Assembly (NCBI RefSeq): GCF_009914755.1
Contig: NC_060937.1
Reading direction: 5' to 3' (one strand)
DNA from: the human T2T-CHM13v2.0 reference genome, Homo sapiens
DNA: 64,000 bases
Shown: in pieces, positions 14,841 through 54,561 of the stretch
Position numbering within the stretch: position 1 is the first letter of the stretch
Layout of the letters: each line of letters starts with the position of its first letter
Made by a program: the position numbers and the translations under genes
The notes under the pieces: generated by a model
Databases searched by the model: none
Told to the model about the DNA's origin: nothing
The model's input: only the letters and a program-made list of their open reading frames with translations

Positions 14841-14888
14841 TAATTAGAAATTGCTTAAAGATATTAATGAAACAGCAAACAAAGGGTT

Positions 14889-15941: not shown

Positions 15942-15944
<3 letters not shown>

Positions 15945-15976
<32 letters not shown>
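15945..15976. repeat. (TG)n microsatellite (mirror (CA)n at ~53474-53505)
   Basis: Direct reading; same length in both arms, as the translated THTH run is identical. Confidence 0.95.
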
Positions 15977-15978
<2 letters not shown>

Positions 15979-28938: not shown

Positions 28939-29378
28939 AGTTCTGAGTCTTCTCTTTCATGTGGTTACTTTGGAATGTTCACGGCACATAATACAATCGG
29001 TATATTTACTGATTGTGTATTGGTGAATTGGTGCTGGCTCTCAGTTCCCGCCTCGCGGCGGGGGGGGCCTGACCACCCCTGCGATGGGTGTCCTAAGAGC
29101 CAGGGGGGGAAGAGGGGCTGGCTGTCAGTCCCCGCCTCCCGGGGGGTGCCTCCCGCCCCTACGATGGTGGTTCCAAGAGTCTGGGGGGGAAGAGGGGCTG
29201 GCTTTCAGTACCCGCCTCGCGGGGGGTGCCTCCCCCAGGTGCGATGGGGGTCCTAAGAGCCAGGGGGTGAAGAGGGGCTGGCTCTCTGTCCCCTCGTCGC
29301 GGGGGTTGCATCCCCCCCCTGTGATGGGGGTCCCAAGAGCCAGGGGGGGAAGAAGGGCTGGCTCTCAGTCCCCGCCTC

Positions 29379-29911
29379 ACTAGCAGGGGAGTTGCTGCCA
29401 AGGCCCTCAAACATGGGGGCCATCCTTTAGAAACCCTGTCTAGTTGTTTAGAGACATAGGCCACCGACCTCATCCAGGGCCCCACAGTTTGGGTTAAAAG
29501 TCCACCTGCCATCTTTTCTCTCTCTGACACATACAATGGAAAAGGCTTTGTCAGATCGGGTAACCCCAGGGCTGAAGCTGCCAGAAGTTTTTCCTTTAAC
29601 TCATGAAAGACTTGCTGTTGTTAGGATCCCCCTTCCAAAGGTTCCCGGTCCCCGACCCCTTTGTGACCTCATACAAAGGCTTGGCTTATACTGCAAAGTT
29701 TGGGATCCACAGTCTACAAAACCCCACAGCTCCTGAGAATTCTCTCGCCTGCCTTCGGCCCTTAGGCTCTGGTAGATTGCAAATAACATGCTTTCTTTCT
29801 GTTCCCGGGTGGCTTCGGACCCCTGTCGGATCGGAAATCCCAAGTAAGGTACCTGCCCTGGGCAGATTTGAGCTTTCTTCTTGGACACCTAATACCCACA
29901 GTCCTCCAGGT
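29379..29911 (-). mobile_element. HERV-E-like (class I) pol fragment, copy 1
   Basis: Minus ORFs [17 protein letters not shown] (RT) and LTQTVGPWMRSVAYVSKQLDRVSKGWPPCLRALAAT (tether/connection domain). Confidence 0.88.
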
Positions 29912-29977
29912 AGGTCCTAAAGATCTTGGGATCCGCGATGGGGGTCCTAAGGCAGGGGGGGAAGAGGGGCTGGCTCT

Positions 29978-30578
29978 CACCCACCCCAAAATGGGCGGCC
30001 TTTATGTTCAGGTTTTGCCCAAGAGTCAGCTTATTTGCTTCTTCTACTATCAGGGCAGTTGCTGCCATGGCCCTCAAACAGGGGGGCCATCCTTTAGATA
30101 CCCTGTCTAGGTGTTTAGAGACGTAGGCCACCGGCCTCATCCAGGGCCCCACAGTTTGGGTTAAAAGTCCAGCTGCCATGTTTTCTCTATCTGACGCATT
30201 GAATGGAAAAGGCTTTGTCAGATCCGGTAGCCTCAGGGCTGGGGCCTCCAGAAGTTTTTCCTTTAACTCAAGAAAGACTTGCTGTTGTTGGGATCCCGAT
30301 TCCATAGGTTCCCAGTCCCCGCCCACTTTGTGATCTCATACAAAGGCTTGGCTAATACTTCAAAGTTTGGGATGCACAGTCTACAAAATCCCACAGCCCC
30401 TAAGTATTCTCTCACATGCTTTCTGCCCTTAGGCTGAGGTAGATTGCAAATGACCTGCTTTCTTTCTGTTCCTGGGTGCCTTCGGACCCCTGTCGGATAG
30501 TAAATCCCAAGTAAGGTACCTGCCGTCAGCAGATTTGAGCTTTCTTCTTGGACACCTAATACCCACAGTCCTCCAGGT
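29978..30578 (-). mobile_element. HERV-E-like pol fragment, copy 2
   Basis: ELKEKLLEAPALRLPDLTKPF...GWPPCLRAMAATALIVEEANKLTLGQNLNIKA. Confidence 0.88.
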
Positions 30579-31206
30579 GGGTCCTAAAGTTCATAGGATC
30601 CGCGATGGGGGTCCCAAGCCAGGGAGGGACGAGGGGCTGGCTCTCAGTCCCCGCCTCGCGGGGGGGTGCCTCCCCCCCCCCTGCGATGGGGGTCCTAAGA
30701 GCCAGGGGGGAAGAGGGGATGGCTGTCAGTCCCTCCCTCGTGGGTGGTACCTCCGCCTTCTGCGATGGTGGTCCTAAGAGCCAGGGGGAGACGAGGGGCT
30801 GGCTCTCAGTCCCCGCTTCGCGAGGGGTGCCTCCCCCCCCCGCGATGGGGGTCCTAAGAGTCTGGGGGGAAAGAGGGGCTGGCTCTCAATCCCCGCCTCG
30901 CGGGGGTGCCTCCCCCAGGTGCTATGTGGGTCCTAAGAGCCAGGGGTGAAGAGGGGCTAGCTCTCTGTCCCCTCGTCACGGGGGTTGCATCACCCACCCT
31001 GCGATGGAGGTTCCAAGAGCCAAGGGGGTAAGAGGGGCTGGCTCTCAGTCCCTGCCTCGCGGGGGTTCCTCCCCCCCTGCGATGGGGGTCCCAAGAGCCA
31101 GGGGGGGAAGAGGGGCTGGCTCTCAGTCCCCGCCTCGCGGAGGGTGCCTCCCCCACCACTGCGATGGGGGTCCCAAGAGCCAGGGGGGGAAGAGGGTCTG
31201 GCTCTC

Positions 31207-31805
31207 CACCACCACAAAATGGGGGGCCTTTATGTTCAGGTTTTGCCCAAGAGTCAGCTTATTTGCTTCTTGTACTAGCAGGGCAGTTGCTGCCAAGGCC
31301 CTCAAACAGGGTGCCATCCTTTAGAAACCCTGTCTAGTTGTTCAGAGACGTAGGCCACCGGCCTCATCCAGGGCCCCACAGTTTGGGTTAAAAGTCCACC
31401 TGCCATCTTTTCTCTCTCTGACGCATACAATGGAAAAGGCTTTGTCAGATCGGATAGCCCCAGGGCTGAAGCTGCCAGAAGTTTTTCCTTTAACTCATGA
31501 AAGACTTGCTGTTGTTGGGATCCCCCTTCCAAAGGTTCCCAGTCCCCGCCCCCTTTGTGACATCATACAAAGTCTTGGCTTATACTGCAAAGTTTGGGAT
31601 CCACAGTCTACAAAACCCCACAGCTCCTGAGAATTCTCTTGCCTGCCTTCGGCTCTTAGGCTATAGTAGATTCCAAATAACCTGCTTTCTTTCTGTTCCC
31701 GGGTGGCTTCGGACCCCTGTCGGATCGGAAATCCCAAGTAAGGTACCTGCCGTCGGCAGATTTGAGCTTTCTCCTTGGACACCTAATACCCACAGTCCTC
31801 CAGGT
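31207..31805 (-). mobile_element. HERV-E-like pol fragment, copy 3
   Basis: SKEKAQICRRQVPYLGF; LGLSDLTKPFPLY; CLRALAATALLVQEANKLTLGQNLNIKAPH. Confidence 0.88.
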
Positions 31806-31871
31806 GGGTCCTAAGGATCTTAGGATCTGCGATGGGGGTCCTAAGGCAGGGGAGGAAGAGGGGCTGGCTCT

Positions 31872-32472
31872 CACTCACCCCAAAATGGGCAGCCTTTATG
31901 TTCAGGTTTTGCCCAAGAGTCAGCTTATTTGCTTCTTCTACTATCAGGGCAGTTGCTGCCACGGCCCTCAAACAGGGGAGCCATCCTTTTGAAACCCTGT
32001 GTAGGTGTTTAGAGACGTAGGCCACCGGCATCAGCCAGGGCCCCGGAGTTTGGGTTAAAAGTCCAGCTGCCATGTTTTCTCTATCTGACCCATTGAATGG
32101 AAAAGACTTTGTCAGATCGGGTAGCCCCAGGGCTGGGGCTGCCAGTAGTTTTTCCTTTAACTCATGAAAGACTTGCTTTTGTTGGGATCCTGATTCCGTA
32201 GGTTCCCGGTCCCCGCCCCCTTTGTGACCTCATACAAAGGCTTGGCTAATACTGCAAAGTTTGGGATGCACAGCCTATAAAACCCCGTAGCCCCTAAGAA
32301 ACCCTCACCTGCTTTCTGCCCTTAGGCTCCAGTAGATTGCAAATGACCTGCTTACTTTCTGTTCCCGGGCTGCGTTCTGACACCTGTCGGATAGTAAATC
32401 CCAAGTAAGGTACCAGCCGTCGGCAGATTTGAGCTTTCTTCTTGGACACCTATACCCACAGTCCTCCAGGTG
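31872..32472 (-). mobile_element. HERV-E-like pol fragment, copy 4
   Basis: PVAYVSKHLHRVSKGWLPCLRAVAATALIVEEANKLTLGQ; 1894 bp downstream of copy 2. Confidence 0.88.
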
Positions 32473-33894
32473 GGTCCTAAGGTTCATAGGATCCACGATC
32501 GGGGTCTCAAGCCAGGGGGTACAAGGGGCTTGCTCTCAGTCCCTGTCTCACGGGGGGTGCCTCCCCCCTTGCGATGGGGGTCCTAAGAGCCAGGGGGGAA
32601 GAGGGGATGGCTGTCAGTCCCTCCCTCGTGGGGGGTGCCTCCCCCTCCTGCGATGGTGGTCCTAAGAGCCAGGGGGGGAAGAGGGGCTGGCTCTCAGTCC
32701 CCGCCTCGCGGGGTGTGCCTCTCCCCCGGCGATGGGGGTCCTAAGAGCCCAGGGGGGGAAGAGGGGCTGGCTCTCACTACCCTCCTCACGGTGGGTGCCT
32801 CCCCGCCTGCGACTGTGGTCCTAAGAGCCAGGGTGGAAAGAGGGGCTAGCTCTGAGTTCCCGCCTCGCGGGGGGTGCCTCCCCACCCTGCGATGGGGGTT
32901 CCAAGTGTCAGGGGGGAAGAGGGGGTGGCTCTCACTCCTCGGCTCGCGGAGGCTGCCTCCCCTCACTGAGATGGGGGTCCTAAGAGCCAGTGGGGAAGAG
33001 GGGCTGGCTCTCAGTCCCTGCCTCGCGGGGGGTGCCTCCCGCCTCTGCGATGGTGGTCCTAAGAGCCAGGGGGGAAAGAGTGGCTGGCACTCAGTCCCGG
33101 CCTCGTGGGGGGTGCCTCCCCTCCTGCGACGCGGGTCCTAAGAGCCAGGGGTGGAAGAGGGGCTGGCTCTCACTACCCTCCTCGCAGTGGGTGCCTCCCT
33201 GCCTGCGATTGGGGTCCTAAGAGCCAGGAGGGAAAGAGGGGCTAGCTCTGAGTCCCCGCCTCGCGGGGGGTGCCTCCCCACCCTGCGATGGCGGTCCCAA
33301 GTGTCAGGGGGGAAGAGGGAGTGGCTGTCACTCCTCGGCTCGTGGGGGCTGCCTCCCCCCCCTGCGATGGGGGTCCTAAGAGCCAGGCGGGAAGAGGGGC
33401 TGGCTCTCAGTCCCTTCCTCGCGGGGGGTGCCTCCCGCCTCTGCGATGGGGGTCCTAAGAGCCAGGGGGGGAAGACGGGCTCGCTCTCAGTCGCCGCCTC
33501 GCGGGGGGTGCCTCCCGCCCTGCGATGGGGGTCCCAAGAGCCGGGGGGGAAGAGGGGCTGGCTCTCTGTACTCGCCTCTCGATGGGTGCCTCCCCGCCTG
33601 CGATTGGGGTCCTAAGAGCCAGGGGGGAAAGAGGGGCTAGCTCTGAGTCCCTGCCTCTCGGGGGGGTGCCTCCCCACCCTGCGATGGCGGTCCCAAGTGT
33701 CAGGGGGGGAAGAGGGGGTGGCTGTCACTCCTCGGCTCGCGGAGGCTGCCTCCCACCACTGCGATGGGGGTTCTAAGAGCCAGGGGGGAAGAGGGGCTGG
33801 TTCTCAGTCCCTGCCTCAGTGGGGGTGCCTCCCCCTCTGCGATGGGGGTCCTAAGAGCCAGCTGAGGAAGAGGGGCTGGCTCTCAGTTCCCGCC

Positions 33895-34453
33895 TTTTTT
33901 TTTTTTCTCAGTGTTTTAGACGCCCAGCTGCACAACTTGATTGCCTTACAAATGACCTGCTTCCAGGATGCGGAAATTCCTAATTTCTTCTGTGACCCTT
34001 CTCAACTCCCCCATCTTGCATGTTGTGACACCTTCACCAATAACATAATCATGTATTTCCCTGCTGTCATATTTGGTTTTCTTCCCATCTCTGGGACCCT
34101 TTTCTCTTACTATAAAATTGTTTCCTCCATTCTGAGTGTTTCATCATCACGTGGGCAGTATAAGGCCTTCTCCACCTGTGGGTCTCACCTGTCAGTTGTT
34201 TGCTGATTTTACGGAACGGGCGTTGGAGGGTACTTCAGTTCAGATGTGTCATCTTCCCCGAGAAAGGCTGCAGTGGCCTCAGTGATGTACACGGTGATCA
34301 CCCCATGCTGAACCCCTTCATCTACAGCCTGAGAAACAGGCATATTAAAAGTGTCCTGCGGCGGCCGCACAGCAGCACCGTCCAATCTCCGTATCTTCTT
34401 ATCTGTTCCATTCCTTTTGTAGTGTGGGTTAACAAAGGCAGCAAGGTCAAATA
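33895..34453 (+). pseudogene. OR7E156P: Olfactory receptor family 7E pseudogene, 3' half only (TM4-TM7)
   Basis: FFCDPSQL, SYYKIVSSIL, YKAFSTCGSHLSVVC then TGA at 34204-34206; frameshift before MLNPFIYSLRN. Family assignment is firm; the specific symbol comes from recalled locus context and is unverified. Confidence 0.8.
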
Positions 34454-34454
34454 A

Positions 34455-37150
34455 GAATGATATCACAGGGCGAACACCCAAAGTGATATTAGGAGTAATA
34501 CTCCCTAGGATATAGAATATACTGTCACAGAGTATACACAGATGGGGTATACCCACTGTGATATTAGAAGCAATATCTCCCTAATGTATGAGGAAAAATA
34601 TCACAGGGTGTGCACACTGTGTGATATGAGGAGTAATATTTACCCTGGATATTACGACTAATATCAAGGGTGTACATACACGGGGTACACGCACTGTGAT
34701 ATCAGGATTTGTATCTCCCTAGGATATTAAGAATACTATCACAGGGTATACACTATGTGTGTACATCCACTGTGATATTTGAAGTAATATCTCTCTATGA
34801 GATTGCAAATAACATCAAAGCGTGTACACCCCTGTGACACATTAGGAGTAACACCCTTCTAGGGTATTACAGATAATGTCACAGCGTGTACACCTCTGTG
34901 ACGTTTTGTACACACTTTGTGACATTAAAAGAAACATCCCCCTAGGATATTGTGAATAATAACACAGGAGGGGTACACACATGGTGTACACCGCCTGTGT
35001 CATCAGGAGTAACATTCCCCTAGGATATTATGAATAATATCACAGCAGGTGTACACACATGGTGTACGCCCCATGTGACATTCGGAAGAGCATGCCCCTA
35101 GGATATTAGGAATAGTATCACAGGCGTTGAATACGCATTTTTAATGTGTAATGTCACCCCCGGTGACATTAAAAATAACATCCCCCTTGGATATTATGAA
35201 TAATAGGACCGGGAGTACACCCCGTGTGACATTAGGAATAACACCTCCCGAGGATATAACGAATAATATCAGAGGGTGTCCATGCATTGTGACCTTAGTA
35301 GTAACATCTCTTTAGGATATTACAAATAGTATCACAGGGTGTACAGGCATTGTGACATTAGTAGTAACATCCCACTGGGATATGACGAGTCATATCACAG
35401 GGTGTACACCCCGGTGACAATAATAACAACATTCCCCTAGAATATTACGAATAATATCACAGGAGGTACAGCCCCTGTGATTTACAAGTAACATGTCTAT
35501 AGAATATTACAACTCATATCACTGTGTGACTCTGTGTACACCCCGTGTGACTTTAGCAGTAACATCCCACAAAACTATGATGAAAAATATCACAGGGTGA
35601 ACACCCCCTGTGACCTGAGGAATAACGTAGTTTTAGGATATTATGAATGATGTGACAAGGTGTACACACCCTGTGACGTTAGGAGCAATATCCGTCTAGG
35701 ATGTTAGGAAGACTATCACACGGAACACACCCCCTGTGACATTAGGATATGACAAATAATATCACAAGGTGTACACGCATCGTGACATTAGTGCTAATAT
35801 CCCTCTGGCACACTATGAATAATATCACAGGGTGTACATCCCTGTGACATTAGGAGTAACATCCCCCTAGAATAGTAAGAATAATAACACGGGGTGTACA
35901 CCCCCTGTGACATGAGGAGTATCATCTCCCTAGAATATTATGAACAATGTCACAGGGTGTTATCGTCTGTTCCAATAGGAGTATAGACCCCTGGGAAATT
36001 ATGAATACTATCACAGGGTGTACAGCCCTGTGACATTAGCAGTAACATCTTTCTAGAATATCACGAATAATAGCACAATGTGTACACCCCCTGTGTCATT
36101 AAAAGTGAAATTGCCGTGGGATATTACAAAATAGAACACAGGGAGGACACCCCGTGTGACATTAGAAGTAACATCCCCCGAGGATATAACCAATAAGATC
36201 AGAGAATGTACCTGCATTGGGACATCAGTAGTAACATCTCTTCAAGACAATACTAATAATATCAAAGGGTGTACACACATTGTGAAATTAGTAGTGAACT
36301 CCCGCTAGGATATTAGGAATTTTATGACAGGGTCTACAGGCCCTGTGACATTAGCAGTAACGTTTTCCTAGAAGATTACGAAGAATATTAAAGGGTGTAC
36401 AGGACCTGTGAATTACGAGTAACATTTCCATAGCATATTGCACGTAACATCACTGTGTGTACACGCCATGTGACATTAGGGGTAACATCCCACAAAATTA
36501 TAACGAATAATTTCACAAGCTGTGCACTCTCTGTGACATTAAAAGTAACACTTCCCTAGAATATGACGACAATATCACGGAGTGTACACCCTCTGTGATA
36601 TGAGGAGTGACATCTTATGAGGATAATACGAGTAATTTCACAAGGTGTACAAACTCTGACATAAGGGGTGACATCCCTCTAGGACATTATGGATAATATC
36701 AAAAGGAACATACCCCGTGTGACAATAAATGCAACCTCCCATTAGGAGAATAAGAAACACCACAAGGTGTACACACAATGTGACATTATTATTAAGGTAA
36801 AGCTAGGATATTGGGAATAACATCACAGTGTACAGAGTCCTGTGACATCAGGTTTAACATTCCCCTGCAAAATTACGAATAATACTGAAGGGTGTATACC
36901 CCCTGCGACTTTAGAAGCTGCATCTTGCTAGAATATGGAAGATAATGTCCCAGGGTGTGAACCGAGGGTGACAGTATAGAAAGGATCCTAGGAAAAATCC
37001 GGGAGTAATATCACCCCACTATCGCCCCCTGGATATGACCATCCACATCGCGGGGGGCACCCGCCCCCCTGCGATGGGGGTCCTAAGAGCCGGGGGGCGG
37101 AGAGGGGTTGGCTCTTACTCCCTACATTGCGGGTGGTGCCTCACCCCCCT
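34455..37150. repeat. AT-rich SATR1/SATR2-type satellite (~65-90 bp units), grading into the GC-rich unit at ~37040-37150
   Basis: Recurrent aatatcacagggtgtacacccctgtgacattaggagtaacatccccctaggatatt; this satellite type is known beside OR7E duplicons. Confidence 0.85.
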
Positions 37151-37601
37151 GCACTATTCACAATAGCAAAGACTTGGAACCAACCCAAATGTCCTTCAAT
37201 GATAGACTGGATTAAGAAAATGTGGCACATATACACTGTGGAATACTATGCAGCCATAAAAAGGATGAGTTCATGTCCTTTGTAAGGACATGGATGAAGC
37301 TGGAAACCGTCATTCTCAGCAAGCTATCACAGGGACAAAAAAAGCAAACGCCTCATGTTCTCCCTCATAGGTGAGAATTGAACAATGAGAACACTTGGAC
37401 ACAGGAAGGGGAACATCACATACTGGGGCCTGTCATGGAGTGGGGAGAGGGGAGAGGGATAGGATTAGGATATATACCTAATGTAAATGACGAGTTAATG
37501 GGTACAGCGGTGTTGGTATAACATGGGACATGTATACATATGCAACAAACTTGCACGTTGTGCTCATGTACCCTAGAACTTAAAGTATAACAAAAAAAAA
37601 T
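37151..37601 (+). mobile_element. L1PA 3' end, fused directly to the satellite with no TSD seen
   Basis: gcactattcacaatagcaaagacttggaaccaacccaaatg...ccctagaacttaaagtataa plus A tail. Confidence 0.93.
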
Positions 37602-38274
37602 AAATATATATATATATTTAAAATGAAGCTGGTTAGGTTTTAAAAGGCTCCTCAATGATAATTACTTATATAGCTGAAGAAATGGGAGACAAAAGGAGGG
37701 CTTCTCTGCCTCCCCAGGGTCTTGGTTTGCCTGGAGGATGGAAGGAAAATATAAGAAACACTTGCAGATAGCATACAGTCTGGCTTTGAATGATCAGATG
37801 TGAATATGTTTCTTGGGATTTGAGGGAGGTTGGACAAGGGGTAGGTGTGGAAGTGCAGAGTGAGTTGGAGAAAGAAGTCTGGCAAAGAAGTTGTAATGAC
37901 TCAGGAAAGGGAATAGGGTTGTCTCTTTCCCTATGGGTAGAGGTAGATATTTTAGGAAAAAAGAGAGAGAGAAAAAAAGGATAAAATTTTGTTATGATCC
38001 CCCCAAAACTTGTTATGTAAGATATATATCTACTGATAGGACATTTTGAAAATTAGTATCAGCTTTATATTTGGGCACATGATTTCACTGAGATGGTTCT
38101 TTGGCAGAGCAGATTAAAATGATGTTCCTGAAATGAAACTCGAGTCTCCAAAATAATTGGCTCATTTTAAGCAAAATATTATTGATGATCAACAGTGACT
38201 GGCACATAATAATTGTTTAAATATTTGTTGGCTAAGTCAGGGAATGAATGATATGCTTTGGCAATTACTGACAG

Positions 38275-38282
38275 TATATAAA
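38275..38282 (+). promoter_or_regulatory. TATA box of the KRTAP gene
   Basis: TATATAAA 86 bp upstream of the ATG. Candidate upstream AP-1 (TGACTCA, 37897-37903) and LEF/TCF (CTTTGAA, 37784-37790) sites are weaker calls. Confidence 0.75.
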
Positions 38283-38360
38283 GGTCTCAGGGAAGTAGAA
38301 GACGTCCACACCTCAGAAGCATCTTCTTGAAACCCATCTCAATTCTCTCCTCTTGACAAC

Positions 38361-38774
38361 ATGTGTTGCAACTACTACGGCAACTCCTGTGGCTATGGCT
38401 CCAGCTATGGCTGTGGCTATGGCTCCAGCTATGGCTGTGGCTATGGCTCTGGTTATGGCTATGGCTATGGCTCCAGCTATGGCTGTGGCTATGGAACTGG
38501 CTACAGCTGTGGCTATGGCTGTGGCTATGGCTCTGGTTATGGCTGTGGCTATGGCTCCAGCTATGGCTGTGGCTATGGAACTGGCTACAGCTGTGGCTAT
38601 GGCTCTGGCTACAGCTGTGGCTATGGCTCTGGCTCTGGCTGTGGCTATGGAACTGGCTTCGGCTGTGGGTATGGCTGTGGTTATGGAACTGGCTATGGCT
38701 GTGGATGTGGCTCTGGCTCTGGCTACTGTGGCTACCGGCCATTTTGCTTTAGAAGATGCTATTCTTCCTGCTAA
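38361..38774 (+). CDS. High-glycine/tyrosine keratin-associated protein, KRTAP21-1-like, 137 aa, single exon
   Basis: [15 protein letters not shown]-terminus and [22 protein letters not shown]-terminus match recalled KRTAP21-1; (GYGxxYxC)n core; true ATG (acaacATG), TAA, TATA box and AATAAA present. It is longer than the canonical gene and has no KRTAP neighbours in the window, so a paralog is likely. Confidence 0.88.
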
Positions 38775-39055
38775 AACATCACTGTCAGAGGACAATTTGC
38801 TTCTAAAATGACACGGCTAAAGATAATACTGATTCAAGGATTCATACTCCAAGATTTCTATATCCAAGAATTACATGCTTGACAGAGTCTTGGACCTCTA
38901 GCCTCACATTTCTTTGAATGAAATCATGGCCATAGGATCCACGGTGTCATCTGACTGTTTTCCAAATGTTATCTTTTGCTCCCTTAATCTCTGACTCTCT
39001 GTTATGACTGTGTTAATGATCATAACATCTACAATTGGGGAAGTCAATCATTTGT

Positions 39056-39061
39056 AATAAA
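39056..39061 (+). terminator. Polyadenylation signal of the KRTAP gene
   Basis: AATAAA ~280 bp after the stop codon. Confidence 0.65.
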
Positions 39062-39079
39062 AATGGTTCTTTATTCCAA

Positions 39080-39351
39080 AAAAAAATGTTTTAGTACAAA
39101 AGAGTCAAAAAGCTAAAATAAAATATAGTTTATAAAGCAAAAAATTATCAGTAAGCTAAGTTTAATGTATTATTGAAGAAATAAAATGTATTTTATACAT
39201 TTACCCTAATGCCTAATGTTTAAGACATCTACTGTAGTGTACAGTAATATCCCAGGCCTTCACATTCACTCACTAATCACTCACTGATCCACCCAGAACA
39301 ATTTTCAGCCCTGTAAGTGCCATTCGTGCTAAGTGGTCTATATAGGTACTG

Positions 39352-39385
<34 letters not shown>

Positions 39386-39670
39386 TTATACTGTGTTTTT
39401 ACTGTATCTTTTCTAGATTTCAATAAGTTGAGATACACAAATATTTATTATTGTGTTACAATTGCCTATATTATCCAATATGGTAACATGCTGTGCAGGT
39501 TTGTATTCTAGAAGCAATAGGCTATACCTTATAATCTAGGTGTGTTCTAAGCTATATCATACAGGTTTATGTAAGTACACTGTGAAATCTGCATGGCAAA
39601 CATCATTGCCTTATGATACATTTCTCAAATTTTCAGAACATATCCCTGTTGTTTAGCAGCACGTGAATGT
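39080..39670. mobile_element. Tigger3/MER7-type DNA transposon fragment with internal (TTA)n
   Basis: cagtaagctaagtttaatgtattattgaagaa; ggccttcacattcactcact; terminal catatccctgttgtttagcagcacgtgaatgta. Confidence 0.75.
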
Positions 39671-40334
39671 ATTTGATTTATTGTCTTGATGTCCCTTTGC
39701 TTTCCCCATGTGTTACCATCAACTGCCTAATGAAACAGCCTGGGATTGTGTAATGACTAACTTAGTGCTTTGAGTTTAATTCTTTTTCAGCCACTGTGGT
39801 ATGTTGATTACTATATTAATAATGTGTCTCCTTTATGTGTTTTTAAATAGTTACTTGGTCATGAACTATTTATAAGCTTTGGAAACATGATTTCATTTAT
39901 TCTGCAGGATAACTTCAGGAAGTGGGTATTAATTCTCACTGTATAAGTGAAGACATTAAGCACCAGAGTTTAAGTAGCTTGGTAAGTGTTATTCCAGTAA
40001 TTAAATAGGCATAAATAGAGTTCAACTTTCTCAGTTCTATCTATAATTTCTCTCTATGTATGGGCTTATTTATATCAACCAGTATACACCTTGGTTTCGG
40101 CAATCAGTTATTGACTTTCTTTAAAGAAGGAAGAGAAGAAAAAAAAGGGAAGAAAAAAAAACCATAACCCTCTTTTACTATCGGACACCACATTTTTCTC
40201 TTCCACATTATCTTCTTTAAAGAACTGCATGTTGCAGAGTCCATGAGTGCAAGTGCTAGAAAGGCCAGGTAGAAATATTAAAAGTGATGCAGTTCAATAC
40301 TGACAGTGATGAAATACAGAATGTATGGACCCTA

Positions 40335-40706
40335 ATACACCGTGGAATACTATGCAGCCATAAAAAAGGATGGGTTCATGTCCTTTGTAGGGACATGGAT
40401 GAAGCTGGAAATCATCATTCTCAGCAAACTATCACAGGGACAAAAAACCAAACACTGCATGTTCTCACTCATAGGTGGGAAATGAACAATGAGAACACTT
40501 GGACACCGGAAGGGGAACATCACACACTGGGGCCTGTCATGGGGTGGGGGGAGGGGAGAAGGATAGCATTAGGAGATATACCTAATGTAAATGATGAGTT
40601 AATGGGTGCAGCACACCAACATGGCACGTGTATACATATGTAACAAACCTGCACGTTGTGCGCACATACCCTAGAACTTAAAGTATAATAAAAAAAAAAA
40701 AGAGAG
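40335..40706 (+). mobile_element. 5'-truncated L1PA (about PA4-PA6)
   Basis: L1PA 3' UTR plus poly(A); perfect 17-bp TSD agaatgtatggacccta at 40318-40334 and 40707-40723. Confidence 0.95.
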
Positions 40707-41510
40707 AGAATGTATGGACCCTATAATCTCAAGGAGGGGCGGCAACCTGGTTGAATATTTTTTCAAGCCAGTTTAGGGAAAGATTGATAAGGTTTCCAAT
40801 TTTTCAAAAGGACCCATAATTCAAATTTTTATATGAAATCTAATTTTTAATTTGAGTTGGAAATTAAAATCAATGTGTTATTTATGTTATGATCTCCACT
40901 TTTGGTTCTATGAGATTATTACTTGTTTAACTCTCTGTAATCTGAATTCTGCCACCCACAAGCCATATTAATGGAGATCGTGAATGACTTACATATTGTC
41001 TTTTGAATACATATTAATTTGCATCTTAATTGACCTGCAAGCAGTTTAAAACTCTTCAGGTGTGTTTATCAAAAGATTCCTTCATATGACTTTTTATCTT
41101 TCTCTACTCTTTCATCAATCTCATTTATTATTAAATTTCGGTTATCAGCTGCCATGCCAATAACTGCCAACTCTAAACACTTATCACAGTTTACTATGCA
41201 AGCTTTATAGGAATATTAATATACTTCCTATTCACATATTCAGTATACATCTTAAGTATTAATTCCCCAAACATATGATTGTCGTTCAGGAGACTTTCTT
41301 TGAACCTCAATAAATGTCATTACACTTTACAGCACTATATTTTTGTTTCATAGAACTTCACTGTTTTATTAATCATTTCTTTGGATAATATCATATATCT
41401 TCTACAAAAGCATAATTTCTATAGGGAAGACAATTTTATTTCTTATTTTTACTATGACATTTTAGCATCTACTATACTGGCCAGCACGCCACACATTTGT
41501 CAATAAATAA

Positions 41511-42638
<1,128 letters not shown>

Positions 42639-43817
42639 AAACTCAATAAATATTTTTGAATGAATAACTCCACAGTCCAAGTTATTTTAATCACTATACA
42701 AAATCTCCAGAGTTTCTTCCATATTTCTGAACATGGTAACTATGTATCAAGAGACAAACCACAAATTTAAAGAAGGTGTGGTCAAATTTTATAAGTGTTT
42801 ATAACATTTGTAAATGTTTGGCATCTAGAATACATGTATAATTCCAACAAATAAATAAGAAAAAAATAAATAATCCAGTGGGATATTGGGCAAAATATTG
42901 AAACCAAAGTGTCATAAAAGAGGAAATATTACTTTTTAATACACGTGGAAAATGTGTACCCACCTGAGCAATCACATATGCAAATGAAAGTTAAAACAAA
43001 ATACAACGAGGCAAAAAAAATTCCCTTGCTTAAGCCTAATGTAAACAAACAAAAAAAATTCATCAAAAGACTATTAGTTTCTATACAGTCAAGGATAATG
43101 TCCAAAATCTGGAGCCGGGAACTGATTCAGTGAGGAAACCACGCTCACCACCATTAAAGATAAGTTGCTATAACTTACATGGGTGTCACTATTGTTTCAG
43201 TAACTTGATCTTGCCCCTACTGCTATTGCTACCAGTGAGAATTTTATAGTGCTTAAATGTATCATTATATCATAATTAAAATTCTGGGGAGTGGGTTAAC
43301 CTAATTGATAGAGCTTAGGTCATCGGGCATACCCTAGCTGCAACAGAGACTGAGATAATGATTACCGTTATCTTCAGCTTCTATAGTAGGTGGCAAGCTC
43401 CGCATTGCAACAACAGGCACAAAATAAAAGGTTTCTCAATCATATAAAGGTGATTAAGATACTGAGCAGCCAAAATGCACATATGTACATAAACAGACAC
43501 TCTCATTACACATATGCCCAAAGAGATTTATTTCAGTATTCTATATAATATTAAAAAGTTGAAGAAAATCTAAATATTGGCCAATACAAAAATGCTTGAA
43601 TAAATGGTGACATGTTATTGGCAGACGTTATTATTAGCAGCCATAAGTCAGTCTCTATATGCCACTTTCTCTGGCATTCTACTATGGAAAATAAACAAAC
43701 ACTTTCAAAGTTTCTCTTTTGCCTTTTAGTCCATGTAAATTATATCTTGGTTAGTAATATTTGAAGAGAGATCTCCTGTGAGGTTTATGAGAAAGTTATT
43801 TCTCTTCCTATAAAGAC

Positions 43818-43835
43818 GTGTGTGTGTGTGCGTGC

Positions 43836-43872
<37 letters not shown>
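43818..43872. repeat. Compound (TG)n(CGTG)n(TG)n microsatellite
   Basis: Direct reading; about 55 bp of alternating purine-pyrimidine. Confidence 0.95.
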
Positions 43873-43874
<2 letters not shown>

Positions 43875-45127
43875 GAGGGGCTGTACATAGGAGACCAGCC
43901 TAGTTCTTGCTTAATAGTGAGGGCATAATATGGTGAATTGAAGCAACTACCTTTCAGTTATGAGGCTACGGGTCTAAGAATGAATGTGAGGATTGCTGAT
44001 GGAAAGAAGTGAGCCTGGCTTACAATAACATTATTTAGTGACTGACTCTCTGTCCAAATCTTTATTATTTGAGAAAACAACCCCTAAATTTAAATGGAAG
44101 GTTGTCGGGAATTTCTATTAAGTAAACTGAAAGTATCCTTAACTTACTCAACATTTATTTCATAGAATATTAAACAGCACTTGATTATGCTGGACCCAAA
44201 TGCATCAATGGGAATAAATCTTAAAAGTATAATGTTGAGTAAGAAACCACTATGTTTGGAATAAGTATAATATGATGAAATGTATTAATTAAGAAAAATT
44301 ATAAAACATTTCTGAATATTGTTCAAGCATACATATTTAATGATAATGTGAAATATGAATAAGAAAGTTGCACAGCGACACCAGAGAGGGAAAGAATAAA
44401 ATAGAAATCGTTCAGGAGAGGAAAATTTTGACTCCCTCTTTAATACTCAGAAATAATATAAAGCAAGTTTAATTAAAATTGTTGAATATGGAAGTAAATA
44501 CGTGGATGTCTATTATATTATTCTATTTTGTTTTGTATGTTAGGCATATTTCAAACTTAAAAACTTTTAGAGTGCTTTCCAAAGTAATGTGCAATTAAAT
44601 TCTTAGAGAAATACTGTAAAGAAAGTAGTATTTTCTCATACTACAGAGTAAACTACTGAGCCTCACTGACATGAAGTAATTTGCACAATTGTTTCTACTC
44701 CAATTGAAGTATTTTACAAATTGTTATGTCACAACCTGGGATTTTTCTTTTGCGTTATCATCATAGATATTCAGGAAATATCTACTCATATGTTCATAAA
44801 ATTGCCTTAAAATGTTTTTTACCAAAGAGACAAATGTTTTCATAGCCTTCATTCTTCGAAAAACCATCTATAACTTTAAACTCATGGTAATGTGTTTCAA
44901 GGAATACGTGAAATATGAAATTTTCCCACAGATTAAGTGGTAAAGATGAGAGCTCAGTGGTGGATAAAGGACAATAATAAATAGCTATTTTTGTATTTCT
45001 CCTTTTTTACATATTGCTTTTCTTCACTATAAATCAAATATACATTAAGTATTTTATTAAAATAAGTGAAACACTAGAATCTAAATATCTACAAAAATTA
45101 AGTGAAGAAATATATCAGAACCCATTG

Positions 45128-47939
45128 TAGGTTGAGCATTCTGAATCTGAAAATATGAAATGCAAAACACTTCAAAATCTGAAACATTTTAAGTGCTAAT
45201 ATGATGCCACAAGTGGAAAATTCCACACCTAACTTCATGTGATAGGTTGCAGTCAAAAGGCACGACCCACAGTTTATTCAGCATCTCCAAGGAAAAATGA
45301 CCATCTTAGCCCACTTCAGCTGTGATATATCTTCTCCATGCCCTTCTACGAAGGGTAATAAAATGGCACATGCACAGGCTGGATGTGTGTTCCCACCAGT
45401 GCCCTACATGGGGCCAAGACCTACGTGCATTACTGACTGTGCTTTTTCTTGCTTATTCTCTGCTCTTTGGTGTAAAGACATTACTGAAAATGTCAAAAAG
45501 GTCTGCAAATACCTCTGTGGGTAATGGTAATAAGAAAAAATAAAAGCGTTTCTGTTTATCTATATAAGAGAAAGTCAAGTTGCTAGAGAAACTGGACAGC
45601 AGTGTACGTGTGAAACATCTTACAGAAGAATATGGTGGTAGAATAACTGTCATATATACCCATGGAGAAACACAAGGATAGACTGCTGAAGATCTGTGCT
45701 GAAAGTGATGAGCAGAAGATATTGAAAAATACGAAACACTGCATAAAGCTAAAAATAAATATGTAAGTTGTGTAACCAAAGTGGATATGTTAGCATCCCT
45801 GAAGAAACACATATATACACCTGAAGAAACTTAAGGGTAAACTGCTGAAGATCTGTGCTGAAAGTGATCAGCAGAAGATAATGAAAAATACAAAAACGCT
45901 GAATAAAGCTAAAAATAAATATGCTTTATTTATAAAGCATGCCACTTAATGGTGTGTGGATCATGACATTAGCAAAGATCTATTACAATGAACTAGAAAA
46001 TTGAAGAGAACTCTGAATATTAAACAGATTGGTTGCAAAAATTTAAGAAAAGTCATGGCATTACATTTTTAAAGATTTATGGGGATAAAGCATCTGCTGA
46101 CCATTAGGCTGTAGATAAATTTATTAATGAGTATACCAAGATTATCGCTGATGAAGACCTGATGCCAGAACAAGTCTATAATGCTGATGAAACATTCATT
46201 TCTGTTTTGGTGTTGTTGCTCTAGAAAGACATCGACTAGAGCTGATAAGACAGCCACTATAGGAATTAAGTATGCCAAGGACAGAATAAGTGGCTGGGAT
46301 GTACTAATGCAACAGGCAAACATAAGTATAAACTTCCTGTGATAGGAAAAAGCTTGCATCCTCACTCTTTTCAAGGAGTAAATTTCTTAGTCCATTATTA
46401 TGCTAACAAGAAAGCATGAATCATCAAGGCGTCTTCTTTGACTGGTTTCACAAACATTTTGTACCAGCAGCTCAAGCTCACTGCAGCGTCGCTGGACTGG
46501 ATGATGATTGCAAGATTTTGTTATTCCTTGACAACTGTTCTCCTCATCCTCCTGTTGAAATTCTCATCAAAAATAATTTTATGCCATGTGTTTTTCCCCA
46601 AACATGACTTCATTAATTCTGTCATATCACCAAGATATTGTTAGATCAATAAAGAGTAAATATAAAAACACTTTTTTTGAAGAGCATGCTAGCAGCAGTG
46701 AACAGAGATCTGACTGTAGAAGGTTTTCAAAAGAAGTTTAGCATGAAGGATGCCATCTACGCTGTTGCCAATGCTTAGAATAAAGTGACTAAAGACACAG
46801 TTGTGCATGTCTGGAATAGCCTCTAGTCTGTAACCATGTTTAGTGATGATGATGAATAAGGTGGTGGGTTTGAAGGATTCCACATATCAAGTGAGGGAAA
46901 AAAAACGATGTCTGATCTCCTTACATATGCAAAAAATACCTTCAGAGTCCCTCAGTAAGCCGGAAGAAGTGGAATTTAGGAAGTTTTTAACAGTGATAAT
47001 GAGAATGCAGATTTTCATTCATTGACTGATGATCAAATAGCCAAAATGGTTCCGAATCAACGTGATCATGAAAATAGTGATCTTGAAGATGATTTATACG
47101 TTGCAGAAAAAGAGCCCACGACAACATGGTGAAAATAAGTGATGAGCTTATTGAAGGCCTAAAACAGTGTGCACTCATAACAGAAACAGAAATCTTCTCA
47201 GTTCATAAAATCAGAAAGTGACTTCTAAGACAAAGAATGTTGTTAATGAGACAGATGATTCTGGAGGAAGCATTTAAAAAAGCCATCCAGCTGAATGTCT
47301 CCTCATCCCTACAGGATCCACTTCCTGGTTGGCGACTGTTTCTAGTGTTTTTTTCTCACCTATAAAAGATAAAATACTGTCTACAGTAACCTTTTAATCA
47401 AAACACAGCTTCTTAGGTGGAGACTGAAAGCCTGCTCTTCTTTTTTGTTGCTGTTGTTTAACAGCTGTTAAAGGTATTCTGGTGAAGCGGGTGTGCTGAT
47501 TAGTTACCCTAAACCTATTATTTTTTCACTGTATTAATATTATGTCATATTTATTATGGTTAAGTGCTTATGTGTGAAAAAAATATAAGAAAATGCTTAT
47601 CAGTAGTTATAAATTCAGAGTTAGGAATGATGGTCTTGCCAAAAAAAAAAAAGCCCCACAGACTGTTCACGTGGGTGGCTGAGATAGTAGCACTTTTGGT
47701 TTCTGATGGTTCACTGTACAAGAACTTTATTTTATGCACAAAATTGTTAAAAATATTATGTAATGTTAGCTTCAGACTATCTTGGTAAAGTGCTTATGAA
47801 AAATAAATTTTGTGTTTACATTTGTGTCTCAACCTCAAGACGTCTCGTTATGTGTATGCAAATATTTCAAAATCCCAAACAATTCAAAATCTTACACACT
47901 TCTGGTTCCAAGAATTTTAGACAAGGAATAGTTAATATG
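45128..47939 (+). mobile_element. Near full-length Tigger4 (Zombi) pogo-family DNA transposon, decayed transposase
   Basis: Termini taggttgagcattctgaatctgaaaat and ttttagacaaggaatagttaatatg+TA; YNADET encoded at ~46177; ORF 46416-46607 WFHKHFVP...ILLFLDNCSPHP (pogo/CENP-B DDE domain); ~2.8 kb. Confidence 0.88.
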
Positions 47940-49571
47940 TATGAATAAACAGCACTTAAGAGAGAAAACGAAATTAAATAAAAGCTGAAAGAAGAATAAA
48001 GAAATTTTACTTCACTAAGAAAAATAAAAATAGCAGAGAAGAAATGTGATGTGTTACTGTGCTAACCTAGAGTTAGAGTTATGCTACCATTGCAATGACT
48101 TTCAGGAATATTTGATGATATCAACAAGGTATTGCTTCTGCAATACATGGAAAAGGCTACAGAGATAGTTTCGGCTTAATTGAAGTGGAGCTAACATTGT
48201 TAGTTTTACTAACAATGGAAGTGATATGCATGATATTAGAATTATATAATTGTTCTGCAGGTTTTGATTGCATGCTCTATGTCACCAATTTTTAATATTA
48301 CAAAAGTATAAGAGTGGGAAAAGTACAAATGGGCATTATTTTTTGTGTGTGCTTAATGTGTTGCCAAAATGTAAGGGCTGGTGATTGGTAATTCTATCAA
48401 AAAGAACACACACACTGCATACATACATATCCTGGAAAGAGAAGATTTAAAAGAAAAGTGAAATTAAGATCAATAGAGTCTGTGCTAAATAACAGTTGAC
48501 ATAACAGACATTGTATACTATTTCAAATAATAATTTCCATAATAGCTATAAGATAGGTTACCATTATTATTCAAATTTTAGAGATAAGGAAACTGAATTA
48601 TGGTTTTATTTAGCACTGGAGAAAGCACAGACAGTAAGTAGTAGATATTTATGTAAAACAATATTCATATGTTATCTAGAGCCCACAGTTTGAACATAAT
48701 ATCATAAAGGATTAAGTTGGAAAAATTAAGAACTATTAGAAGGTGATGACAGTCATAGGTTTACATCATATTCTTATAATTTATTAATTTTTCTTCCATA
48801 TTTATGTGTATTTTCTGAACCCGTTTCCTTATCTTAAAAATGGAAGTGTTAATACTAGTCTTGTAAGAGTTATTCTATCTTTCCCACAATTTTATCATGG
48901 ACAGGAAAAAAAAACTGATAGCTACATATAAACGCATGAAAAATGAAATGATATTCATTGTTCAAATATTTTATCACATGTGTACACCTCTTGTTAAACT
49001 TTATTTTTTCACAGAAAATGATACAAGTTATTATTAAATTTGTTGCTTAATCAATGTCTTATAAGCTTAACGTATAAGTTTGTAGTTGGCCATTTTATTC
49101 TCTATTTTATTGAGAATTATTCACTAACCATGCAGTAGTATTGTTAGTACCTTTCTTTTTGATCATATGAATGATCTTTTAAAAAGCGAAGATAGAGTTT
49201 TGTGGATTAAATACCATTCAAATTATAATTTATTGTTTTATTTCACTGGCACTGCTAGAAAACTAGTAGGTTTAACTATGTAAAGACGCTCCATGTTTTT
49301 CATATTTTAACTAAATGTTATATTTAGTTTAACTATATAAATATTAACTTCCTAATACCCCAATATATTACTCACAAGCCATGAATGAACATACTTTACA
49401 TGGTAGTCATTAAAAAACAACTTTTACAAGTAGACTCAGATGCCAGTATGTAATTCCCAAAAGGCTAAGAGGCTAAGAACTTGGTCTTGTGTACTGCTGT
49501 ATTACTAATGGCCGAGAAAATGCCTGGGACTCAGTGAACACTCCATAAATATTGATCCTATGAGCGTGACA

Positions 49572-49656
49572 GTGTGTGTGTGTGTGTGTGTATGCACGCA
49601 TGTGTCTGCGTGTGTGTGAGAGACAGAGAGAAGGAGAGAGAGAGAAAGAAGAGAGA
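49572..49656. repeat. (TG)n/(GA)n compound microsatellite
   Basis: Direct reading. Confidence 0.9.
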
Positions 49657-49946
49657 TCAACTTCCATCTCATTATTTCAGGCAAGAGCCACCATAAACAA
49701 TGTGTACTAAGTCGTAAGAAGAAATGGAATTAGAGCTTTATTTTAGAATAAGTACTCACTGATATTAAGCAATGTCAAACATACAGAAGATTAACATAAT
49801 GTTCAGGATTTGAGTAAAAATAAATCAGAAGAACTGGGAAAAGAATATATCTGCTTAAGTTTTGAATCCCTACAAAACAAAGTAGCAGCTTACATATATC
49901 AAAGTCTGGCTGTTTAGTAACTATTTTCTACTTCTGTTTAATTTTT

Positions 49947-49948
<2 letters not shown>

Positions 49949-49982
<34 letters not shown>
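49949..49982. repeat. (TG)n microsatellite
   Basis: Direct reading. Confidence 0.95.
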
Positions 49983-49986
<4 letters not shown>

Positions 49987-52900: not shown

Positions 52901-53471
52901 TTTATGTTTTTGTTTAATATTTTTCTTATAATGATATAGTTTGGCATATATATGAATTCAAAATAAGTCAGTGTGGTTTTATTTTTCACCAGCTTATTTT
53001 TATTTAATTAAACCTAAAAATTACACTGACATAGATACAAATTTCCTTTTTTTCAAATATAAATTTTGTTTTCTTTATACGTTCAAGCTTTCTTATACAT
53101 TAGAACATTTGTAACATTAGAAAGTAAATTGTACACTTATTATTATTCATAAGACAATTTTTGAAGTTGGGTAATTTTTAACAAAATGATGCTATATCTT
53201 CTATGAAAATATGAGTTTTGTTGTTCAAACATTTTAATGAAATTGGATACAGAAACCAATTTTTAAAAGTCATCCTATGAAATTTCTTTATTCATTTCTG
53301 AACATCTGGCTATTTCTTGTTGAATTAGGTTTTAAATGACTATTTTAATATTTCTAAAAAATAATCAATCAGAAATACTTCATTATTTATTTCACTGGCT
53401 TTCAGTTACAATATCTATTTAAAATAAACATTTACATAGGTTGTGATACATGGAACATATTTTGCTTGAAG

Positions 53472-53508
<37 letters not shown>

Positions 53509-54187
53509 TATAAACAAACACACAAACAGAGATGTGATTAATTACTCTAGGTCACTGACTATTTTGTTTAATGAAAAGTTACCATTTAAACCATGCAGTT
53601 ATCCTTTGATATCATGTAGTGATTGGTTCTAGGACCCCTAATAGATACAAAATTCTCCTTATAGATACAAAAATGGTGTAGTATTTGCAATGCTATATTT
53701 ATTTTATGTAATGCTATATTTATATGTAAAGCTATTTATATATGTAATGCTATATATATTACATTATATATGTAATACATTTACATATATAATGCTATTT
53801 ATATATGTTTATATATACAACTATATGAATAGTTGTTTTATTGTATTGTTTTTTATTTGACTTATTTTTATTGCATTTTATAAGTTTTTTTTAATCAGAG
53901 CTTGGTTACATCCATGGATGCAGAACCCATAAATATGGAGGGAGGACTGAATGAATATAATAAGATTTTAAAATAAGAGAAATTAAATTAGTAAATTATG
54001 TAAGACTCATTCACCTTCAATATTTTAACATTATTTATTAAAACGAACATGTACTTACAATGCTTTTACTATATTCTAAGCAGTGGGCTATGCAAGGAGG
54101 ATTAAACAAATACCAGTGTATAAAAAAATGCACCACGCGGAAGTAATACTTTTATTAAAAATTACAATTAATAATGAAGAGTGCCCC

Positions 54188-54561
54188 TGATACGGTTTTG
54201 CTTTGTGTCCTCTTGAAATCTCTTGTAATTCCCATAATCCCCATGTGTCAAGGGTGGAACCAGGTGGAGGTAATTGGATCATGGGGGCGGTTTCCCCGCT
54301 GTTGTTCTCACGGTAGTGAGTGAATTCTCACAAGATCTGATGGTTTTATACACATCTGGCATTTCCCCTTCTTGTACTCACTCTGTCCTGCCACCATATG
54401 AAGAAGGTGTCAGCTTTTCCTTTGCCTTCTGCCATGACGTTTTGTAAGTTTCTTGAGGCCTCCCCAGCCATTCAGTGCTGTGAATCAATTAAACATTTTT
54501 CCTTTATAAATTACCCAGTCTCAGGTATTTCTTCATAGCAGTGTGAGAAGAAACTAATACA
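54188..54561 (+). mobile_element. MSTA/THE1-type LTR (mirror copy in right arm)
   Basis: Reverse complement of 14889-15262. Confidence 0.88.

What the first reader, a model, noticed from the sequence alone, without database searches (positions are those of the whole stretch)
37780..39090. Orphan, intact, elongated KRTAP21-1-like gene with complete promoter outside any KRTAP cluster
Seen: uninterrupted 137-aa ORF, TATA box at the expected distance, AATAAA, and no other KRTAP in 64 kb. Retained upstream sequence argues for DNA-level duplication, not retroposition. Established: high-Gly/Tyr KRTAPs normally lie in the 21q22.1 cluster, and I recall KRTAP21-1 as about 79 aa. Inference: a lineage-specific, possibly functional hair-shaft protein gene that may be under-annotated. 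I recall LOC-type models at 13q21.31, unverified.
Basis: partly seen in the sequence, partly recalled or inferred. Interest (0 to 1): 0.72.

Follow-up and report, generated by a model that had tools for sequence, protein, structure and literature searches.

The report
Hair-protein gene retroposed with its promoter
This is an already annotated human hair-protein gene on chromosome 13, one of three near-identical copies of a 1.3-kb piece of chromosome 21 that holds the KRTAP21-1 gene and its promoter; the piece was likely pasted there through an RNA copy by a LINE-1 jumping gene in an ape ancestor, and whether it makes protein in hair is untested.

Summary
In detail: 137-aa ORF at 38361-38774, TATA 38275, AATAAA 39056. 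The gene is annotated (LOC112267897), and it is one of three chr13 copies: a 109-aa intact sibling 86 kb away (LOC647264; 'KRTAP21-3' in Wu 2008's supplement) and a start-less copy at 45.68 Mb. Only window 37621-39077 matches chr21 KRTAP21-1. It starts right behind the tail of a sense L1 3' end and stops 16 nt after the first AATAAA, in an A9 tract. AAAATG lies at both junctions, and the A tract interrupts an old repeat. These are marks of L1-machinery retroposition that carried 680 nt of promoter (about 0.8). No L1 sits at the chr21 site, so a 3' transduction with a lost source (0.5) and insertion into an existing L1 tail (0.3) remain open. Later DNA duplication made the three copies. Published tables list chr13 copies in chimp and orangutan, none in macaque. 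The extra length is repeat-unit gain. I saw no expression data, and signs of selection are weak. Known gene, apparently undescribed origin; the closest precedent is AMAC/SVA.

The parts
29022..37150 (.). OR7E156P-bearing block of ~80-bp and ~63-bp tandem repeats. It fits the '13q-63Mb Xiao' duplicon of PMC2700803 (assignment inferred from position and make-up). It joins the L1 fragment directly.
37151..37590 (+). 3' end of a primate L1 (family name from recall), cut on its 5' side at the tandem-repeat block. The AATAA found after the L1 end in 14 of 21 readable genomic hits is changed in all three chr13 copies.
37591..37619 (+). Decayed L1 A-tail turning into (TA)n; its length differs among the three copies
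37620..37625 (+). AAAATG, left copy of the candidate target-site duplication; its last 5 nt also match the start of the chr21 piece (microhomology)
37621..38300 (+). 680 nt of KRTAP21-1 upstream/promoter DNA from chr21. It keeps CTTTGAA (37784), TGACTCA (37897), two TAATTG motifs and the TATA box; their labels as LEF1-, AP-1- and homeodomain-like sites are recalled.
38275..38282 (+). TATA box TATATAAA, identical in chr21 and all three chr13 copies
38361..38774 (+). LOC112267897 ORF, 137 aa, 13.6 kDa, G 37%, Y 22%, C 15%, S 15%
38390..38724 (+). In-frame coding tandem repeat (12-nt unit; 84-nt higher period, 3.7 copies). This ORF is 84 nt longer than the sibling's.
39056..39061 (+). AATAAA, the first one after the stop on chr21
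39078..39086 (+). A9 tract where chr21 homology ends (chr21 reads T-A5-T here); inferred remnant of a poly(A) tail
39083..39088 (+). AAAATG, right copy of the candidate target-site duplication
39087..39670 (+). Old dispersed repeat (Tigger-like by recall) that begins mid-element at the A tract; its left part was not found
33285..50474 (.). 17-kb segment duplicated with C13:63.04-63.06 Mb (98.3%); 37073-50474 is also shared with C13:45.67-45.68 Mb (94-97%)
8340..18937 (+). Left arm of a 10.6-kb inverted repeat (matches inversion HsInv0340)
50517..61093 (-). Right arm of the same inverted repeat; the gene lies in the invertible spacer

Best explanation
The gene is a copy of a 1.3-kb stretch of chromosome 21 (KRTAP21-1, 680 nt of its promoter and its 3' UTR) that was likely written into chromosome 13 through an RNA intermediate by LINE-1 machinery in an ape ancestor, and was then likely multiplied to three chr13 copies by ordinary DNA duplication. 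Inferred steps: (1) a transcript that started upstream of the KRTAP21-1 promoter ran through promoter and gene and was cut at the gene's own AATAAA. The likeliest source is an L1 that once sat just upstream on chr21 and is not in this genome (3' transduction, about 0.5 of the 0.8). (2) The RNA was reverse-transcribed into an A-rich site inside an old DNA-transposon-like repeat on chr13. (3) Segmental duplication with the OR7E/satellite block made the other copies. (4) Slippage of the in-frame 12-84-nt repeat lengthened the ORF without breaking it. Because promoter and TATA came along, the intact copies would likely be transcribed in hair-follicle cortex like the parent and add a longer glycine/tyrosine-rich matrix protein (about 0.4; untested).
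For: Shown: chr21 homology runs only from 37621 to 39077. The right end is 16 nt after the first AATAAA past the stop and is followed by A9, A8 and A4-C-A4 in the three copies; only 2.5% of positions in the 30-kb chr21 stretch lie 10-30 nt after an AATAAA. The left end sits directly behind the tail of a same-strand L1 3' end. AAAATG flanks both ends, and removing the insert leaves TTT/AAAA, the L1 endonuclease consensus (consensus recalled). The A tract cuts an old repeat mid-element: other genomic copies continue upstream. The order L1, tail, unique sequence, AATAAA, poly(A) is the definition of a 3' transduction, and donor L1s are often missing at source loci: only 3 of 6 human calls had one (PMC4862182 section 14; passages). 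Only 4 close copies of the upstream piece exist among 5 of 5 candidates. Timing: 36 of 775 differences from chr21 in distal upstream plus 3' UTR; chr13 rows for chimp (3 of 6 KRTAP21 rows) and orangutan (1 of 3), none of 5 for macaque. The RefSeq model runs to 39760, past the inherited poly(A) site, as expected if the GU-rich downstream element stayed behind on chr21 (inferred).
Against: No L1 3' end lies at the chr21 junction or in the 14.3 kb upstream. The chr21 junction reads CC/AAAT, a poor endonuclease site for a source L1. The L1 carries 17 changes in 434 nt shared by all three copies, against 6-14 expected if it arrived with the insert (P 0.0003-0.26 depending on assumptions), which leans towards an older L1. 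No sibling transduction was found. The A tract is short, and chr21 itself has A5 one base further on, so a DNA join by microhomology needs only one substitution plus slippage. The candidate duplication is only 6 nt and mostly A. The left flank of the original site was not found. For function: one of three copies has lost its ATG, the ORF would survive neutrally with probability 0.36-0.60 per lineage, and I saw no expression or protein data.
Confidence: 0.8

Rival explanations
1. Same RNA route, different order (this share lies inside the 0.8 above): the L1 was already on chr13, and a 5'-truncated cDNA of a read-through or orphan-transduced KRTAP21-1 transcript inserted at the end of its tail, duplicating AAAATG with 5 nt of microhomology.
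For: Removing the insert gives a perfect TTT/AAAA site and a 6-nt duplication. The L1 looks older than the insert. No L1 at the chr21 junction.
Against: Landing by chance in the tail of a same-strand young L1 is rare a priori (inference). No upstream L1 promoter was seen in 14.3 kb of chr21. This L1 fragment also changed faster than its flank after the copies split (16/439, partly a small inversion, vs 197/11344), so the age test is inconclusive. The loss of the L1's own AATAA in all three copies would favour read-through.
Confidence: 0.3
2. DNA-level templated insertion, the first reader's idea in its most tenable form: 1.3 kb of chr21 was copied into a chr13 break by repair synthesis, using A-rich microhomology at both ends.
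For: Both junctions have about 5 nt of microhomology with chr21; the promoter is retained; the gene has no intron whose loss could prove an RNA step.
Against: It needs the right end to fall by chance at the poly(A) site (2.5% background), the left end to fall at an L1 tail, and a T-to-A change plus A-run growth shared by all three copies.
Confidence: 0.15
3. Separate question (function): the intact chr13 copies are silent or neutrally drifting duplicates whose ORFs have simply not yet been hit.
For: Neutral survival is 0.36-0.60 per lineage, and repeat changes come in multiples of 3. One copy has lost its ATG, and the sibling has a 9-nt deletion just before the TATA. The insert is not significantly more conserved than its flank among chr13 copies (P 0.19 and 0.69). 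No paper on the locus was found.
Against: The non-repeat ORF ends differ from chr21 at 1 of 142 sites vs 36 of 775 outside (P 0.03, though part of that is constraint on chr21). The three copies show 0 substitutions there, with about 2.9 expected from flank rates (arithmetic; P about 0.06). Copies are listed as intact in chimp (2 intact, 1 partial) and orangutan. RefSeq has a curated model that extends into chr13-specific sequence (hub table).
Confidence: 0.5

Closest known systems
KRTAP21-1 (high glycine-tyrosine keratin-associated protein, 21q22.1)
   Same: Parent gene. N-terminus identical, C-terminal 34 aa differ by one Y-to-C change, single exon, promoter 97-98% identical near the start.
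   Different: On chr13; 137 aa vs 79 aa through repeat gain, with YGSSY units; downstream poly(A) context replaced.
LOC647264 / 'KRTAP21-3' of Wu et al. 2008 (PMC2528016, supplement 1)
   Same: Sibling copy in the same duplicated block, intact, flank 0.6% divergent.
   Different: 109 aa here, 300 nt (99 aa) in hg18; 9-nt deletion before the TATA. In my term searches of the main text the chr13 location was not mentioned.
AMAC (SLC35G) genes spread by SVA 3' transduction (Xing et al. 2006)
   Same: A whole gene moved by retrotransposon machinery in apes. Seen only as a table row in PMC3123540; that the promoter was carried and the source element lost is recalled, as the paper was not held.
   Different: Here the partner is an L1, there was one retroposition event, and further copies came from DNA duplication.
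L1 3' transductions and gene retrocopies (TIGER, PMC4862182)
   Same: Layout L1, unique sequence, AATAAA, poly(A); donor often absent at the source.
   Different: In that survey of 280 events only 2 touched exons, and both turned out to be plain retrocopies; none carried a gene with its promoter.
Xiao/DA OR7E duplicons and inversion HsInv0340
   Same: The upstream block and the 10.6-kb inverted repeat match these described features (PMC2700803, PMC3961182).
   Different: 'Keratin' has 0 occurrences in PMC2700803; PMC3961182 only names LOC647264 as lying in the inverted region.

Membership tests
HGT-KRTAP, subfamily 21 | Gly/Tyr-rich composition (family mean G 34.3, Y 21.1, C 17.9, S 11.5%) | tested here: met
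   G 37.2, Y 21.9, C 15.3, S 15.3% vs the table in PMC4180150
HGT-KRTAP, subfamily 21 | Pfam KRTAP domain above cut-off; closest relative is KRTAP21-1 | tested here: met
   PF11759 30.1 bits vs 21.1; upstream DNA 96% identical to the chr21 79-aa gene, 77% to its neighbour
HGT-KRTAP, subfamily 21 | Single coding exon with TATA promoter and poly(A) signal | tested here: met
HGT-KRTAP, subfamily 21 | Location in the 21q22.1 tandem cluster (typical, not required) | tested here: not met
   C13:62.97 Mb
HGT-KRTAP, subfamily 21 | Expressed in hair-follicle cortex and built into the shaft | not testable with these tools
   no expression or proteome data available
L1-machinery retroposition (TPRT) | Copy ends just after a poly(A) signal in a non-templated A tail | tested here: met
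   16 nt after AATAAA, A8-9; chr21 has T-A5 there, so the tail is only partly non-templated
L1-machinery retroposition (TPRT) | Target-site duplication at an endonuclease-type site | tested here: inconclusive
   6-nt A-rich AAAATG at both ends of the chr21 piece; the outer left flank was not found
L1 3' transduction | Same-strand L1 3' end and tail directly 5' of the unique piece | tested here: met
   37151-37619
L1 3' transduction | Donor L1 upstream of the source locus | tested here: not met
   None at the junction or within 14.3 kb in this genome. Absence is common, but it keeps me from filing this as a proven transduction.
L1 3' transduction | L1 and carried piece are the same age | tested here: inconclusive
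   17 shared changes vs 6-14 expected; P 0.0003-0.26
Segmental duplication | At least 1 kb at 90% identity or more between copies | tested here: met
   17 kb at 98.3% and 12 kb at 97.4%

The most novel reading that the evidence does not exclude
An L1 3' transduction carried a complete tissue-specific gene with its working promoter out of the keratin-associated protein cluster. It founded an ape-specific, hair-expressed family of longer, length-polymorphic glycine/tyrosine proteins on chr13, one member of which sits inside a recurrent human-chimp inversion and is invisible to standard tryptic hair proteomics.
Probability: 0.2. Interest if true: 0.72.

Novelty: new member of a known kind. Interest (0 to 1): 0.48.

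Why it matters
Retrocopies normally lose their promoter. A copy that carries 680 nt of upstream DNA is a rare natural test of whether retrotransposons can move a ready-to-work gene, and of whether a short KRTAP promoter is enough for hair expression outside its cluster. It is also a caution: a retained promoter in an intronless gene does not prove DNA duplication. If expressed, these copies add length-variable hair matrix proteins to apes that the KRTAP surveys I read list only in supplementary tables. If silent, this is a well-dated retroposed duplicate of modest interest.

Tried and rejected
(1) Window in the canonical cluster: rejected, it is C13. (2) Large DNA duplication from chr21: rejected, homology is 1.29 kb only. 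(3) Finding the left half of the original target site: two genome-wide patterns gave no chr13 hit (0 matches at up to 1 mismatch; 9 matches at 3 mismatches, none on C13), and none was found in the chr13 DNA I held (window plus two 30-kb stretches). Wider chr13 surroundings were not examined, so the extent of the duplication beyond those stretches is open. (4) A paralog without the insert: the downstream unique flank has only the three copies (3 of 3 candidates), and the satellite-L1 junction likewise. (5) Dating the L1 against the insert: inconclusive; the 27 comparison L1s were the top hits of 40 scored from 9408 candidates and are biased young. (6) The L1 at the far end of the satellite block in the sibling locus is a separate, opposite-strand element. 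(7) The 138-aa (+1 frame) and 151-aa (minus strand) ORFs overlap the same repeat and are treated as by-products. (8) Telomere-repeat hits in the protein search are low-complexity noise. (9) Literature: LOC112267897 0 papers; LOC647264 1; KRTAP21-1 with chromosome 13, 1 listing, not read, unrelated by title; KRTAP/retrotransposition/chromosome 13 at 3 of 4 terms, 11 listed, none on this by title; KRTAP promoter search 0; KRTAP21-1 hair proteomics 6, of which one sheep paper was read in passages. Xing 2006, Cordaux and Batzer 2009, Pickeral 2000 and Szak 2003 were not held, so an older genome-wide transduction list could already include this event. No fold or complex prediction was run: low-complexity protein, and no claim depends on it.

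Full report
Observation. The sequence shows TATATAAA at 38275-38282, an open frame of 137 aa at 38361-38774 and AATAAA at 39056-39061. The protein is 37% Gly, 22% Tyr, 15% Cys, 15% Ser and passes the Pfam KRTAP cut-off. The hub table names it LOC112267897 (NM_001395920.1), so the gene is known.

Copies. A DNA search of the genome found four close loci: the window, C13:63.05 Mb (-), C13:45.68 Mb (-) and C21:29.12 Mb (-) (5 of 5 candidates with the upstream piece, the fifth being a 77% neighbour on chr21). The chr21 locus encodes 79 aa, which fits the 240-nt KRTAP21-1 row in Wu 2008. The 63.05-Mb copy encodes 109 aa and lies at LOC647264. The 45.68-Mb copy lacks the A of its ATG. The chr13 copies share 12-17 kb of flank, with 0.58% and 1.74% substitutions, so they arose from each other by DNA duplication. 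The window copy's share ends at 50474, 43 nt before an arm of a 10.6-kb inverted repeat that matches the polymorphic inversion HsInv0340 (PMC3961182, passages; PMC6748972, passages).

How the gene left chr21. Homology with chr21 covers only window 37621-39077. The right end lies 16 nt after the first AATAAA downstream of the stop, and is followed by A9 (A8 and A4-C-A4 in the other copies) where chr21 has T-A5-T and then a GU-rich stretch. Only 2.5% of positions in the 30-kb chr21 region lie 10-30 nt after an AATAAA. The next base belongs to an old dispersed repeat that starts mid-element: most of the 10 other genomic copies I aligned continue upstream with shared sequence. The left end abuts the decayed tail of a same-strand L1 3' end at 37151-37619. 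AAAATG stands at both ends (37620-37625 and 39083-39088). Together these are the marks of target-primed reverse transcription of an RNA that began at least 680 nt upstream of the gene's own start. I put the RNA route at 0.8.

Which RNA route. The layout L1, tail, unique sequence, AATAAA, A tail is that of a 3' transduction, and donors are often missing from source loci (3 of 6 human calls had one; PMC4862182 section 14). The L1's own AATAA, present in 14 of 21 readable hits, is changed in all three copies, which would favour read-through. Against this, no L1 lies at the chr21 junction or within 14.3 kb upstream, and the chr21 junction is a poor endonuclease site. Excising the insert from chr13 leaves a perfect one with a 6-nt duplication. 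The L1 has 17 changes in 434 nt shared by all copies, where 6-14 are expected if it came with the insert (P 0.0003-0.26); a separate L1 at 40335-40690 has 11 in 351. I weigh transduction with a lost source at 0.5 and insertion into an existing L1 tail at 0.3. A DNA-templated insertion with microhomology at both ends remains at 0.15. The outer left flank was not recovered; the L1 is joined to an OR7E/satellite block in all three copies, which fits the 13q-45.9Mb and 13q-63Mb Xiao duplicons. Those were reported in chimp but not in the orangutan release of the time (PMC2700803, first quarter and passages), so the block may have arrived later and removed the flank (inference).

Age. The distal upstream and 3' UTR differ from chr21 at 36 of 775 sites. 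Wu 2008's supplement lists 1 of 4 human and 3 of 6 chimp KRTAP21 rows on chr13, two of the chimp rows about 89 kb apart on opposite strands as here, and 0 of 5 macaque rows outside chr3 (first 30 of 43 places seen). Khan 2014's supplement lists 1 of 3 orangutan rows on chr13, 0 of 4 for gorilla, and one unplaced gibbon row (first 30 of 115 places seen). These are draft assemblies, so absence is weak evidence. An origin in the ape ancestor fits.

Length. The elongation lies wholly in the coding repeat. This copy is 84 nt longer than the sibling and has a 59-nt exact run at period 84. The sibling is 330 nt here but 300 nt in hg18, and listed ape copies are 243-282 nt. Length is therefore a variable repeat trait, and 137 aa may be specific to this haplotype (inference).

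Function. The promoter motifs and TATA are kept, so hair-cortex transcription like the parent's is the likeliest activity (inferred, about 0.4 for protein in hair; HGT-KAP expression in cortex from PMC6680380, passages). The RefSeq model ends at 39760 in chr13-specific sequence, 26 nt after an AATGAA, which hints at real transcripts, but I did not see the supporting reads. Evidence for selection is weak. The ORF ends differ from chr21 at 1 of 142 sites (P 0.03 against 36/775, partly due to constraint on the parent). There are no substitutions among the copies there (about 2.9 expected). However, the insert is not significantly better conserved than its flank (P 0.19, 0.69), neutral survival is 0.36-0.60 per lineage, and one copy is dead. 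Trypsin yields no useful peptide.

Novelty. The gene is annotated, and its sibling was tabulated in 2008. My term searches of three KRTAP surveys' main texts found no mention of chromosome 13 or retroposition (PMC2528016, PMC10029157, PMC4180150; passages), and the library searches found no paper on its origin. Older transduction surveys were not held. The kind of event is known from AMAC/SVA (table row in PMC3123540; details recalled). Verdict: a new member of a known kind, a promoter-carrying retroposed gene, here tied to L1; interest 0.48.

Noticed in passing
window 8340-18937 and 50517-61093: 10.6-kb inverted repeat at 99-100% complementarity; matches HsInv0340, reported as polymorphic in human and chimp and as disrupting LINC00395.
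   Followed up: yes
window 33895-37076 vs C13:45,681,667-45,684,850: The 3.2-kb 63-bp-satellite block is inverted in the 45.68-Mb copy relative to the two 13q21 copies.
   Followed up: no
window 39090-50474 vs C13:63.04-63.05 Mb: Divergence is patchy: 10-16 changes per 1.2 kb in the first 3.6 kb, then 1-3 per 1.2 kb over 6 kb, which suggests gene conversion between the two 13q21 copies.
   Followed up: partly
window about 37507-37520: A tiny inversion with 6 extra bases inside the L1 fragment is shared by the two 13q21 copies and absent from the 45.68-Mb copy.
   Followed up: partly
window 40318-40723: A second, independent L1 3' fragment with a clean 17-nt target-site duplication, present in all three copies.
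   Followed up: partly
L027 (C13 about 63,054,650): The sibling LOC647264 has a 9-nt deletion directly before the TATA box and has lost one TAATTG motif.
   Followed up: no
window 38395-38811 (+): A 138-aa Ala/Met/Val frame overlaps the gene; in the 45.68-Mb copy the loss of the ATG leaves this frame's ATG as the first one downstream.
   Followed up: no
L023 (C21:29,108,700-29,110,200): A 1.4-kb array of the same Gly/Tyr/Cys-type repeat at 75-79% identity, next to KRTAP21-2; probably the expanded KRTAP21 pseudogene listed by Wu 2008.
   Followed up: no
PMC3961182 Table 2: It places LOC647264 inside the inversion, whereas current RefSeq gives that name to the copy outside it, so older records under that name may refer to this gene.
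   Followed up: partly
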